NCBI RefSeq assembly: GCF_057098645.1
Contig: NZ_CM169472.1
Length of the DNA: 64,000 nt
Direction: 5' to 3' (one strand)
Position numbers: made by a program
Part shown: positions 29,501 to 32,500 of the stretch, piece by piece
How positions within the stretch are numbered: position 1 is the stretch's first letter
How the letters are laid out: each line of letters starts with the position of its first letter

Positions 29501-32500
29501 TGGTCAGGGTGGAATGGGAACAAAATCCCACGATATTTTCACGCTACCGCTGTGTCGGGAGCATCACAACGAGCTTCATGCGGATCCGCTGGCGTTCGAA
29601 GAAAAGCATGGTTCCCAGGTTGATTTAATTTTTCGTTTTCTTGATCACGCCTTTGCAACCGGCGTGCTCGGGTAAAAGAGGTTACTGATGCGTATAGAGT
29701 TTGTTTTGCCTTACCCGCCGACGGTGAACACCTACTGGCGACGTCGTGGCAGCACATATTTTGTATCAAAAGCCGGTGAGCGTTATCGCCGGGCTGTGGC
29801 GCTTATTGTTCGCCAGCAGCGGCTGAAATTAAGCCTGTCCGGACGGCTGGCAATAAAAATTATTGCAGAACCACCGGATAAGCGCCGCCGTGACCTGGAC
29901 AACATTCTGAAAGCACCGCTGGATGCGCTGACGCATGCGGAAGTGCTCATTGATGACGAGCAGTTTGATGAAATCAATATTGTGCGCGGTCAGCCTGTGC
30001 CAGGTGGACGGCTGGGCGTGAAGATTTACGAAATCAGAGGTGGTAACGATGGCGCGTGATATCCAGATGGTTCTTGAGCGATGGGGGGCATGGGCAGCAA
30101 ATAATCATGAAGATGTAACATGGCCCTCGATAGCTGCTGGTTTTAAAGGATTAATCCCGACTAAAGTGAAATCACGTCCTCAGTGTTCTGATGATGACGC
30201 CATGATAATTTGTGGTTGTATGGCACGATTAAACAAGAATAATCAGTATTTGCACGATTTGTTGGTGGATTATTACGTAGGTGGAATGACATTTATGGCT
30301 CTTGCACGTAAGCATAGATGTTCTGATGGGCTTATTGGTAAAAGGCTTTATAAAGCGGAAGGTATTATTGAAGGAATGCTTATGGCTCTGAATGTCCGGT
30401 TAGATATGGATATGCGGTAGGGATATATAGTGATGAGGGTTATGTTTTCTGTGTTTATAATTAACATGTTTATTTTTTGATGGTCATGTATTGTGGAAGG
30501 TAGATAAAATGTTGCCTGGTGAATTGAAAATATTGATAATCAATCTTCATCATTAAATAAAAGGAGTGCTTATGTGGATTGTGTTAGTACTGTCACTGTC
30601 AACTCTCAGTTGGCATAAGGTAGTGGCTTTTTCATTGTTGACGGTGTCTGTTGTCCTGGCTGTGCTTAATGATATTATTGATTGGTCGGTGTTATTTTTT
30701 GTTGCTACAATCGTTTTTTTTATTATTTTGAAGTTCAACTGGAAATATAACGCCTGGGCTAAATCTATATATGAAGTTGGCATAGTTTTATCAGCCATAG
30801 CATTATCTTTCCATCTATGGCCAGGGTTTCACAATCCTGTAGTGCTAAATTCTGTTACTGTTGGCCCTCAAAGTACTCCCTATACAATGTATTTTAATTT
30901 TGATAAAGCGCTGGTGCCATTTTTGTTAGTCCTGTGTACATCTTCTTTGTTTAAAAAAGAAGTAAAATCAGAAGTGTCTTTGTGGAAGTGGGGGGCTCTG
31001 TCGCTCTCTGTTCCTCTTATCCTGTTTTTGGCTGTTTTTTTTGGTGGATTAAAGCCAGAGATTCATTTTCCTGAGTGGTTGCCAGAGTTTATATTGGCTA
31101 ATTTGTTTTTTGTGTCTCTGGCAGAGGAATCATTATTTAGAGGGTATATTCAATCACGGCTATCAGAAGTAACGTCTCCATTGGTTGCATTAATTGTGGC
31201 GGCTTTGTTGTTTGGTTTTTATCACTATTCAGGTGGTGCTTTACTTGTATTATTTGCCACGTTATCTGGTGTTGTGTATGGATTGTCATGGATGTGGAGT
31301 GGGCGTTTGTGGGTTGCCACCCTTTTCCATTTTGGTTTGAATCTGTGTCACTTGTTATTCTTTACCTATCCATTTTTAAAACATAATTGATTTTTTCTAT
31401 GGTTTTAAATTTATAAGACTGAAAAATAGCAGGACGTGACATTTGCATGAAAAATATGCACGGCAAAGCATTTACGTACGTAAAAAATCAGGTATGCTGT
31501 TAAGAGTGGTTATTTCGCCGCATAGCTTGACCCCGCCTCTGAGCGGGTTTTTTGTGCCCGCAAAGTAGCGCAGTGCGTTAAATGTGCTGGTAGTTATTAA
31601 TACAGGTCTTTCAGCTTGCTGGCTTTTTCGGCAAGAGTTATTGGTGTGTCACGTTAACCGGAAAGGGTAAAAAGACATGCTGAAACAGCAGGATATGACA
31701 GAAACCGCCAGAGTTGTGTTTGATGAATTAAGCGTCACCGAACCGGCGACAGTCGGGGAGATTGCGCAGAATACTTACCTTTCACGCGAACGCTGCCAGT
31801 TAATACTGACCCAGCTTGTTATGGCGGGTCTGGCAGACTATCAGTGCGGTTGTTACAGACGCCTTCAGTCCTGAAGGCTTTTTTATTTGTGGTAAATGGG
31901 CGGCTGGTGGGTGTTAGCGGCACCTGTCAGTCCTTTGCTTATGTGTTGATGATAATTTACCTTTTGGGGCTATAATTGAACTAACCAATTGCTAATGAAA
32001 GTAAAATTATAATGGTTGTTGTCTGTTCAGTTATCATGGTTTGCTCCCCAATTAATATTTTTCTTGAAAAGGATACGTTGTCACTTAAGCCCGGCTCAGT
32101 CGTTCTGGCCACCAAATGCATCAGGGCGCTTTTCCTTATGCATTATGGCAAAGTTAAAATTTTCGATATAAACCATTCCATAGTAAGTCAATATCTGGAA
32201 ATTCAGCATAAGCTGACAAGAACTCATCTGACTGACGTTCCGCTTTATCTGTCACTGGAACCCAACAACCCTGCGTTGGCTGAGGCTTTAATTACCAGCC
32301 AGAGATTTTCCGGAGATACCACGGATATGTTTCTTATGATGGCATGCCTGTCGCTGTTTGAATCAGATGAACGGATATTATTATTTTTAAGTGGATGTTT
32401 ATCCAGTATAAGTGCCAAAGTCAGGGCGATAATTCAGACAGATATATCAGCAAGCTGGACGCTTGGTGCGATTGCGTTACGCCTGCATATGAGTGAGAGT

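What the first reader, a model, noticed from the sequence alone, without database searches (positions are those of the whole stretch)
30420..31560. CPBP/Abi-family membrane protease directly after Q, where Stx phages carry stx
An AT-rich 274-aa CPBP-family intramembrane metalloprotease (EESLFRGY, FGFYH motifs) starts 145 bp after Q and ends before a strong terminator. It would be expressed with late genes under Q antitermination. CPBP/Abi proteins act in bacteriocin immunity and abortive-infection systems, so this may be an undescribed phage-borne immunity or exclusion function.
Basis: partly seen in the sequence, partly recalled or inferred. Interest (0 to 1): 0.6.

Follow-up and report, generated by a model that had tools for sequence, protein, structure and literature searches.

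The report
Prophage membrane protease gene beside Q
This is a real, intact and already annotated prophage gene (ECs1085 of E. coli O157 prophage Sp4) for a CPBP/Rce1-type intramembrane protease of unknown function, and it lies before the phage late promoter rather than in the late-operon position where Shiga toxin genes sit.

Summary
The ORF is real: 30572-31390 (+), 272 aa from the ATG. It matches Pfam Rce1-like (E 1.4e-19), keeps all three CPBP motifs, and gives a confident model whose best solved matches are SpdC and Rce1. It is already annotated: ECs1085 in Sakai prophage Sp4, WP_000265267.1 in 571 of 5426 complete E. coli genomes, phrog_13291 (no function). I found no functional study.

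An 82-bp unit after the gene (31471-31552: palindrome TTTACGTACGTAAA, TATGCT, then the "strong terminator") follows this Q family in 74 of 80 viral contigs, whatever lies in between: this protease, the DLP12/NmpC-type porin, an anti-repressor-like gene or an IS. It is the only DNA besides Q shared with K-12 DLP12. I read it as Q's own late promoter, binding site and terminator. The protease would then sit between Q and pR', outside the Q-antiterminated late operon and not at the stx position. Also, "Abi" is an obsolete name, and no defence model matches.

Homologues at 46-60% identity are ordinary chromosomal genes (modF-galE in Yersinia). The phage copies form one clade under purifying selection. 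An immunity or exclusion role is possible but untested.

The parts
30049..30420 (+). Antiterminator Q gene (123 aa) of the small Q21-like family (PF06530 / phrog_79); 86% identical to K-12 DLP12 QuuD
   Evidence: (Q21 PDB 6p18, E 7e-8)
30421..30571 (+). AT-rich Q-CPBP spacer with no terminator-like site. Holds a sigma-70-like site TTGCCT-17-GATAAT (30512-30540) and the RBS AAGGAG (30561-30566). Candidate own promoter of the cargo gene; weak evidence.
   Evidence: the equivalent site TTGTCA-17-GATAAT in L006 and ATGACA-17-TATTGT in L009. Promoter-like sites are not enriched over shuffles.
30572..31390 (+). CPBP / Rce1-like glutamic intramembrane endopeptidase gene, 272 aa (= ECs1085, WP_000265267.1, phrog_13291)
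31124..31141 (+). Codons for CPBP motif 1, EExxxR (E185, E186, R190), the catalytic glutamates
   Evidence: Invariant in 53 homologues
31211..31225 (+). Codons for CPBP motif 2, FxxxH (F214...H218)
   Evidence: Invariant in 53 homologues
31328..31342 (+). Codons for CPBP motif 3, HxxxN (H253...N257)
   Evidence: H253 invariant, N257 in at least 90% of 53 homologues
31471..31484 (+). 14-bp perfect palindrome TTTACGTACGTAAA. Half-sites TTTACG/CGTAAA are invariant in 25 variants. Candidate -35 element and/or Q-binding element.
31493..31498 (+). TATGCT, the conserved TATnnT -10-like hexamer, always 16 nt after TTTACG
   Evidence: invariant T, A, T, T and constant spacing in 25 variants; the scanner picks TTTACG-16-TATGAT in L009
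31471..31552 (+). Whole conserved 82-bp unit, read as the probable pR'/QBE/pause region plus tR' of this Q family. It is the only segment besides Q shared with DLP12 (85% identical to L093 6196-6277).
31532..31553 (+). Intrinsic-terminator-like hairpin CCCGC/GCGGG plus T6. This is the 'strong terminator' of the finding, read here as tR'. The terminator and the DNA downstream of it are also shared with prophages that carry unrelated Q genes.
31677..31874 (+). 65-aa ORF (phrog_331; ECs1086-like; named 'TrmB family' in some RefSeq records). First ORF after the unit; conserved behind different Q types.

Best explanation
The feature is an intact cargo gene ('moron') of a lambdoid prophage of the Sp4/CP-933M type, integrated between yccA and serT/hyaA. 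It encodes a polytopic inner-membrane protease of the CPBP (Rce1-like, glutamic intramembrane endopeptidase) family.

Shown:
- The protein belongs to a phage-borne clade that branched from a family of stand-alone chromosomal genes widespread in Enterobacterales.
- The phage copies are under purifying selection.
- In this lineage the gene always lies about 120-150 bp after a small Q21-like antiterminator gene, on the same strand, with no terminator-like site in between in this window.

Inferred from comparative anatomy:
- The 82-bp unit at 31471-31552 (TTTACG-N2-CGTAAA, 8 nt, TATnnT, a conserved initially transcribed stretch, then a hairpin and T-run) is this Q family's late promoter, Q-binding and pause site, and tR'.
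- The protease gene therefore occupies the variable cargo slot between Q and pR', the slot that holds the nmpC/Lc porin in DLP12-type prophages.
- It would be transcribed by read-through of the Q (delayed-early) transcript, and possibly from a promoter of its own in the AT-rich spacer. It would not be transcribed from pR' under Q antitermination.

Inferred by analogy only (my estimate about 0.3):
- Its most likely job is an envelope-level lysogenic-conversion function. The intramembrane protease would cleave or sequester a membrane-inserted peptide or protein. This would give immunity to a membrane-active bacteriocin or microcin, or exclude superinfecting phage.
For: Identity:
- Pfam PF02517, E 1.4e-19.
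- The EExxxR and FxxxH residues and H253 are invariant across 53 homologues; N257 of the third motif (HxxxN) is kept in at least 90%.

Known gene:
- ECs1085 in Sp4.
- Present in 571 of 5426 complete E. coli genomes, one copy each.
- phrog_13291.

Phage clade and selection:
- Copies at 83%, 62% and 59% identity all follow an 80-93% identical Q.
- The phage copies are monophyletic in a neighbour-joining tree of 53 sequences.
- dN/dS is 0.11-0.29 with saturated dS.

Chromosomal relatives.

Architecture:
- 74 of 80 IMG/VR loci with this Q carry TTTACGNNCGTAAA 516-2338 bp after Q. The intervening cargo is CPBP (14 loci), an OmpC-like porin on the minus strand (about 47), an anti-repressor-like gene, a small secreted protein, or an IS.
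- 25 sequence variants keep TTTACG-N16-TATnnT and the following TAAgagTggTtacT.
- blastn between the window and DLP12 finds only Q and this 82-bp unit.
- In K-12 the unit lies after nmpC and about 200 bp before essD.
- Prophages with other Q types share only the terminator and the DNA downstream.
- The window's Q is 86% identical to QuuD. QuuD is reported to control the DLP12 lysis cassette (PMC7918800, citing Rueggeberg 2013).
- In Q21 the Q-binding element lies inside the promoter, at -21 and -13 (PMC6606751).
- No terminator-like site lies between Q and the protease gene.

Functional analogy:
- McsI, a CAAX-family protein, gives microcin S immunity in E. coli (PMC3316575).
- CPBP genes often lie next to bacteriocin genes.
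- The same slot holds a porin gene in DLP12-type prophages. That the phage PA-2 Lc porin changes phage receptor status is from my own knowledge.
Against: - No transcription start, Q binding or termination was measured here. The promoter assignment rests on conservation and geometry, and the site scores only 8 of 12 against the sigma-70 consensus.
- For DLP12, a published reporter construct numbered -121 to +650 places a start site about 320 bp upstream of the unit. At least one other promoter therefore exists in that prophage.
- Promoter-like sites in the Q-CPBP spacer are no more frequent than in shuffled sequence.
- No bacteriocin, exporter or small-peptide partner gene lies near the phage or the chromosomal copies. 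This argues against a dedicated immunity pair.
- PADLOC finds nothing.
- No substrate is known for any member of this subfamily.
- In a second phage lineage (L098, L140) a 55%-identical homologue lies after the first terminator downstream of a lambda-type Q. Placement relative to pR' is therefore not fixed for the family.
Confidence: 0.55

Rival explanations
1. The protease gene is the first gene of the Q-antiterminated late operon: pR'/qut lies in the 151-bp spacer after Q, and the gene occupies the stx-equivalent position and is expressed on induction.
For: - The gene lies between Q and the lysis genes on the same strand.
- The spacer is AT-rich and has sigma-70-like hexamers.
- In another lambdoid lineage (L098, L140) a 55% homologue does lie after a Q-proximal terminator and before the holin.
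Against: - The spacer after Q is not conserved among cassettes whose Q proteins are 80-93% identical.
- The spacer shares nothing with DLP12, whose Q is 86% identical.
- The unit after the gene is conserved in all of these loci.
- In the porin-type loci the cargo is on the opposite strand.
- Mosaic boundaries put the Q-specific part of the unit directly upstream of a terminator that is shared with other Q types.
Confidence: 0.1
2. A passenger gene. A chromosomal housekeeping-type CPBP protease was picked up by a phage and persists without any phage- or lysogen-specific function.
For: - Homologues at 46-60% identity are single genes in ordinary chromosomal neighbourhoods (modF-galE/gpmA in Yersinia and Providencia, others in Dickeya and Enterobacter).
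- There is no partner gene.
- No phenotype was found in the literature.
Against: - The phage copies form one clade that has diverged to 58% identity while staying intact.
- dN/dS is 0.11-0.29 and all catalytic residues are kept.
- The gene is retained in 571 genomes, mostly at 99% identity or more.
- It recurs between Q and the lysis genes in two unrelated Q lineages.
Confidence: 0.2
3. An anti-phage abortive-infection or defence gene ('Abi').
For: - The old Pfam name of the domain.
- Prophage cargo genes are often defence genes.
- The product is an inner-membrane protein, located where injection or exclusion could be affected.
Against: - No PADLOC model matches at E up to 0.1.
- The 'Abi' name is stated to be no longer appropriate for this domain.
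- It is a single gene without a sensor or effector partner.
- Core chromosomal orthologues exist.
Confidence: 0.1
4. A lysis-timing or envelope-remodelling accessory. The membrane protease would act on holin/antiholin, spanin or peptidoglycan-enzyme partners, as the CPBP-like SpdC partners the glucosaminidase SagB.
For: - The gene is close to the holin/endolysin cassette in L006-L008 and L098.
- The best structural match is SpdC in the SagB-SpdC complex.
Against: - The same slot holds unrelated cargo, so position is not function-specific.
- In this window about 7 kb of other cargo, including an IS21 element, separate the gene from the lysis genes.
- SpdC is catalytically inactive, whereas this protein keeps all catalytic motifs. 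The statement about SpdC is from my own knowledge.
Confidence: 0.05

Closest known systems
Rce1 / MmRce1 type II CAAX protease (PDB 4cad), founder of the CPBP family
   Different: Only 15-17% identity. The phmmer search against PDB sequences finds nothing. Bacteria have no prenylated CAAX substrates. The N-terminal half carries a family-specific conserved segment (PGFHN...YFNFDKA, residues 84-113), part of which is modelled as short strands (residues 90-107).
SpdC / LyrA of Staphylococcus aureus (PDB 6u0o, SagB-SpdC complex)
   Different: 13-14% identity and Gram-positive. SpdC lacks catalytic activity and works as a scaffold (my own knowledge). This protein keeps every catalytic residue.
CPBP-type bacteriocin self-immunity proteins: McsI (microcin S, E. 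coli G3/10); PlnI, SkkI and similar in lactic acid bacteria
   Same: Same domain family. McsI shows that such a protein can give peptide-toxin immunity in E. coli (PMC3316575). The family is often found next to bacteriocin genes.
   Different: No toxin or exporter gene lies nearby. McsI is 216 aa. A tblastn search of the plasmid collection at E 1e-5 returned only one Escherichia record, an EDL933 record that carries this same gene, and no Shigella record. Immunity was not tested. The lactic acid bacteria examples are from my own knowledge (Kjos et al. 2010, not held in the library).
nmpC (DLP12) / lc (phage PA-2) porin genes
   Same: They occupy the same genomic slot, between an 85-86% identical Q gene and the same conserved unit that precedes the lysis genes. 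They are envelope proteins carried as lysogenic-conversion cargo.
   Different: An unrelated protein (an outer-membrane beta-barrel). It is encoded on the opposite strand and so is necessarily self-transcribed.
stx genes of Stx phages (933W, Sp5, Sp15)
   Same: Cargo lying between Q and the lysis cassette of a lambdoid prophage in EHEC.
   Different: stx lies downstream of pR'-tR', so it depends on Q (PMC7547250); it also lies downstream of the tRNA genes (from my own knowledge of Stx phage maps). This gene lies upstream of the probable pR'. Only the homologue in L098 and L140 has an stx-like placement.

Membership tests
CPBP / Rce1-like glutamic intramembrane endopeptidases (PF02517) | Significant match to the family profile | tested here: met
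   PF02517 matches residues 171-260 with E 1.4e-19. Precomputed PF02517 is recorded on all listed homologues.
CPBP / Rce1-like glutamic intramembrane endopeptidases (PF02517) | Motif 1, EExxxR, with the catalytic glutamates | tested here: met
   E185, E186 and R190 are invariant in 53 sequences.
CPBP / Rce1-like glutamic intramembrane endopeptidases (PF02517) | Motif 2, FxxxH, and motif 3, HxxxN/D | tested here: met
   F214, H218 and H253 are invariant; N257 is present in at least 90% of sequences.
CPBP / Rce1-like glutamic intramembrane endopeptidases (PF02517) | Polytopic helical membrane fold like Rce1 | tested here: met
CPBP / Rce1-like glutamic intramembrane endopeptidases (PF02517) | Proteolytic activity | not testable with these tools
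   Requires biochemistry.
Bacteriocin/microcin self-immunity CPBP proteins | Encoded next to a bacteriocin precursor and/or its exporter | tested here: not met
   No such genes lie around the phage copies or the chromosomal copies. The only small ORF nearby (31443-31568) overlaps the conserved non-coding unit.
Bacteriocin/microcin self-immunity CPBP proteins | Confers resistance to a specific peptide toxin | not testable with these tools
   Requires an experiment.
Known anti-phage defence / abortive-infection systems | Match to a model of a known or candidate defence protein | tested here: not met
   PADLOC finds no family at E up to 0.1.
Myxosortase-type CPBP sorting proteases (MrtX/C/P/J/S) | Score above the curated NCBIfam cut-off | tested here: not met
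   Scores are 19-46 bits against cut-offs of 75-435 bits, and only the core domain aligns.
Q-dependent late-operon cargo (stx-like position) | Located downstream of the phage's pR' and tR' | tested here: not met
   By comparison, the Q-linked unit with the terminator lies at 31471-31553, after the gene. This is an inference from conservation, not a transcript map.
Phage 'moron' (autonomous cargo cassette) | Composition different from the flanks, variable presence at a fixed site, own promoter and terminator | tested here: inconclusive
   Deviant GC content is met. A variable slot with alternative cargo is met. The gene's own promoter is only a weak consensus match. The downstream terminator belongs to the Q-linked unit.

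The most novel reading that the evidence does not exclude
The phage CPBP clade would be a catalytically active lysogenic-conversion determinant. It would give EHEC and related lysogens resistance to a membrane-targeting microcin or colicin, or block DNA entry by competing phages. It would have been recruited independently into the Q-to-lysis interval of two unrelated lambdoid lineages. That would make it the first characterised phage-borne CPBP immunity or exclusion protease in Gram-negative bacteria, and would give a function to the widespread orphan chromosomal family in Enterobacterales.
Probability: 0.2. Interest if true: 0.6.

Novelty: new member of a known kind. Interest (0 to 1): 0.3.

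Why it matters
If the protease protects lysogens, it would add an unstudied fitness factor to prophage Sp4/CP-933M of O157, O145 and O111 EHEC. That prophage also carries pchA, tccP2 and espV in related strains. It would also give a first function for an orphan CPBP subfamily found across Enterobacterales. As it stands, the main practical result is a correction of the map. In prophages with the QuuD-type antiterminator, the late promoter unit lies after a variable cargo slot. Cargo placed there, whether this protease or the NmpC/Lc porin, should not be assumed to be Q-dependent or co-expressed with the lysis genes or with toxin genes.

Tried and rejected
- Phage collection (50,697 GenBank phage records): no match to the region by megablast, and none to the protein by tblastn. 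The gene is known only from prophages and IMG/VR proviruses.
- PDB sequence search with the protease: no hit at E up to 1. Fold comparison was needed instead.
- Rfam on 28000-34000: nothing at 31400-31600.
- Literature. 'ECs1085' gave 0 papers. 'CPBP' with 'prophage' and 'E. coli', and 'CAAX amino terminal protease' with 'O157', gave nothing on this gene.
- Rueggeberg 2013 (QDLP12) and Kjos 2010 (Abi immunity) are not held.
- A second match to TTTACGNNCGTAAA at 14601-14614 lies inside the integrase gene and lacks the rest of the unit. I treat it as chance.
- The 41-aa ORF at 31443-31568 was considered as a 'cognate small peptide'. I rejected it because it overlaps the conserved non-coding unit and is not annotated in Sakai or E2855.
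- The AraC-like gene at 32012-32725 was considered as PsrA or PsrB. Those map to OI-50 and OI-57, so this gene is probably one of the further Psr homologues that review mentions (not compared here).
- L141 (47% homologue) lies at the edge of a predicted provirus next to non-phage genes, so it is uninformative.
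Full report
1. Observation

The ORF is present as described. It runs from 30566 (GTG) or 30572 (ATG) to 31390 on the + strand. RefSeq starts it at the ATG, giving 272 aa. The PHROG profile also begins there, and AAGGAG at 30561-30566 sits 5 nt upstream.

Q (30049-30420) ends 151 nt before the ATG. GC content is 0.34-0.39 across the gene and the 3' part of Q, against 0.51-0.56 in the flanks.

Pfam Rce1-like PF02517 matches residues 171-260 with E 1.4e-19. The quoted motifs EESLFR and FGFYH are there, together with the third CPBP motif HFGLN.

A terminator-like hairpin (5 G-C pairs and T6) lies at 31532-31553.

2. It is an already annotated gene

- The DNA is 100% identical to E. 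coli E2855 and to several O111:H8 and O145:H28 strains. It is about 99.9% identical to O157:H7.
- It occurs in 571 of 5426 complete E. coli genomes, essentially once per genome and on the chromosome.
- The prophage sits between yccA and serT/hyaA.
- In Sakai the gene is ECs1085, 'phage CAAX amino terminal protease family protein', in prophage Sp4.
- RefSeq calls it a CPBP family intramembrane glutamic endopeptidase (WP_000265267.1).
- PHROGs holds it as phrog_13291, function unknown.
- I found no paper that studies it.
- None of 50,697 deposited phage genomes carries a homologue.

3. The protein

In an alignment of 53 homologues, E185, E186, R190, F214, H218 and H253 are invariant, and N257 is nearly so.

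The family is now regarded as glutamic, not metallo, proteases. The 'Abi' name is considered inappropriate (bioRxiv 10.1101/2023.06.07.544157).

NCBIfam myxosortase models match only the core domain, far below their cut-offs. PADLOC has no match.

4. Relatives

Proteins of about 270-276 aa at roughly 50% identity are widespread in Enterobacterales: Dickeya, Providencia, Serratia, Pantoea, Hafnia, Enterobacter, Cedecea, Yersinia and Photorhabdus.

- In Yersinia pseudotuberculosis and Providencia alcalifaciens the gene sits between modF and galE or gpmA, a core and non-mobile setting.
- In Dickeya, Enterobacter and Salmonella the neighbourhoods differ, but the gene is always a stand-alone gene without a toxin or exporter partner.

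The closer relatives are phage-borne. Copies at 83% (E. albertii), 62% (E. coli) and 59% (Shigella) identity each lie 120-145 bp after a 122-125 aa Q that is 80-93% identical to the window's Q. These copies form one clade in a neighbour-joining tree. Pairwise dN/dS is 0.11-0.29 with saturated dS. The gene has therefore been maintained by selection in phages for a long time.

5. Where the late promoter is

Aligning the cassettes shows that the spacer after Q is not conserved in the diverged cassettes. A block after the protease gene is conserved: ATTTACGTACGTAAA is invariant, and a terminator follows about 50 nt further on.

I fetched 80 IMG/VR loci that encode this Q family.

- 74 of the 80 have TTTACGNNCGTAAA at 516-2338 bp after Q.
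- Five of the six exceptions are contigs cut off too early. The sixth (L055) has 1935 bp after Q and no unit.

What lies between Q and the block varies:
- the protease (14 loci);
- an OmpC-subfamily porin on the opposite strand (about 47 loci);
- an anti-repressor-like gene;
- a small secreted protein;
- an IS.

The porin arrangement is that of K-12 DLP12: quuD, then nmpC on the minus strand, then the block, then essD about 200 bp later.

blastn between the window (Q to 32000) and DLP12 (quuD to essD) finds only two homologous segments. They are Q itself and an 82-bp unit, window 31471-31552 against L093 6196-6277, at 85% identity.

Across 25 sequence variants the invariant pattern is TTTACG-N2-CGTAAA-N8-TATnnT-gtTAAgagTggTtacT. 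The spacing is strictly constant and nothing upstream is conserved. That gives a -35-like and a -10-like hexamer 16 nt apart, followed by a conserved initially transcribed stretch and a hairpin with a T-run.

Prophages with unrelated Q genes share the terminator and the DNA downstream, but not the palindrome and TATnnT part. This is what a Q-specific promoter and binding element fused to a common downstream module would look like.

Three further points fit this reading:
- The window's Q is a distant relative of Q21 (PDB 6p18, E 7e-8), and the Q21 binding element lies inside the promoter at -21 and -13 (PMC6606751).
- The window's Q is 86% identical to QuuD. QuuD is reported to control the DLP12 lysis cassette (PMC7918800, citing Rueggeberg et al. 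2013).
- pR' promoters are constitutive, and in lysogens their transcripts stop at tR' (PMC7547250).

I therefore read 31471-31553 as this phage's pR'/QBE/tR'. The 'strong terminator' of the finding is tR'.

This is inference from comparison; no transcript was mapped. One caveat: a DLP12 reporter numbered -121 to +650 implies a reported start site about 320 bp upstream of the unit. That DNA has no counterpart in the window.

6. Consequence for the finding

- The protease gene lies between Q and pR'. It is not in the late operon and not in the stx position, which would be after the unit and after the tRNA genes at 32754-33003.
- No terminator-like site separates it from Q. It should therefore be transcribed with Q after induction.
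- It may also have a promoter of its own: TTGCCT-17-GATAAT at 30512-30540, with an equivalent and better site in L006. This evidence is weak, because such sites are as common in shuffled AT-rich sequence.
- Placement is not universal for the family. In a second lineage (L098, L140) a 55%-identical homologue follows a lambda-type Q (phrog_127) and a strong 11-bp-stem terminator, and precedes the holin. That is a true stx-like placement.

7. Function

Nothing here reveals a substrate. The following points bear on the role:
- The gene is intact, catalytically equipped and selected in phages.
- It recurs between Q and the lysis genes in two Q lineages.
- It shares its slot with an envelope-altering porin.
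- It belongs to a family in which self-immunity to peptide toxins is a documented role, including McsI for microcin S in E. coli (PMC3316575).

On that basis I favour an envelope-level lysogenic-conversion role, either toxin immunity or exclusion, at about 0.3. The rivals are a neutral passenger copy of a host protease, a defence/'Abi' function, and a lysis accessory.

Three observations argue against a classical immunity pair or a known defence system:
- there is no partner gene;
- core chromosomal orthologues exist;
- PADLOC finds nothing.

8. Verdict

The family assignment is correct, with updated terminology. The regulatory and positional interpretation is probably wrong for this prophage. 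The proposed immunity or exclusion function is untested.

This is an uncharacterised member of a known family in a well-known prophage. Interest is modest.

Noticed in passing
window 31471-31553; also L093 (K-12 DLP12) 6196-6277: If the unit is pR'-tR', lysogens with QuuD-type prophages, including K-12 DLP12, should constitutively make a terminated leader RNA of about 50 nt. That would be analogous to lambda 6S RNA or StxS. No Rfam family covers it.
   Followed up: partly
window 33080-33270 (+): Strong match to Rfam STnc100 sRNA (138 bits against a gathering score of 47), just downstream of the prophage tRNA genes.
   Followed up: no
window 33772-35741 (+): An IS21-family element (istA 390 aa, istB 266 aa) is inserted after the tRNA genes. 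It is absent at this point in E2855 and Sakai, where the nanS-p-like esterase gene follows directly.
   Followed up: partly
window 32012-32725 (+): An AraC-family regulator of 237 aa resembling YdeO/GadX (NCBIfam E 9e-30, below cut-off). It corresponds to ECs1087 of Sp4. It is a homologue of the prophage Psr regulators but is not PsrA or PsrB, which map to OI-50 and OI-57.
   Followed up: partly
window 32754-33003 (+): Three tRNA genes (CAT, TCG, TCT anticodons), equal to ileZ-argN-argO as in Stx phages. ARAGORN calls the first one Met; RefSeq calls it Ile.
   Followed up: no
window 27966-28178 (+) and 28187-28268 (+): A Hok-family toxin ORF (hokD-like, 70 aa as listed), followed by a weak sub-threshold match to the isrK sRNA family (27 bits against 50).
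   Followed up: no
window 31677-31874 (+): A 65-aa ORF (phrog_331) with its own terminator-like hairpin at 31861-31878. It is conserved immediately after tR' in prophages with at least three different Q types. It may be the first late-operon gene. Function unknown.
   Followed up: partly
L098 3741-5268; L140 2708-3834: A second lambdoid lineage carries a 55%-identical CPBP gene after a lambda-type Q (phrog_127) and a strong terminator, and before a holin (holin seen in L098 only). This is an stx-like position, unlike the window.
   Followed up: yes
L096 / L097 (Salmonella enterica) 2111-5822: A 51% homologue lies in an island next to PAPS-reductase-like (DUF3440) and ParB_N genes and several IS elements, so the family also travels on non-phage islands.
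   Followed up: no
window 14601-14614 (+): A second exact match to TTTACGNNCGTAAA lies inside the integrase gene, without the rest of the unit. It is probably chance.
   Followed up: yes
L029 3453-3860; L031 4265-4807 (-): Other cargo in the same Q-pR' slot includes a small secreted His/Lys-rich protein and a 180-aa signal-peptide protein. Neither has a family match.
   Followed up: partly
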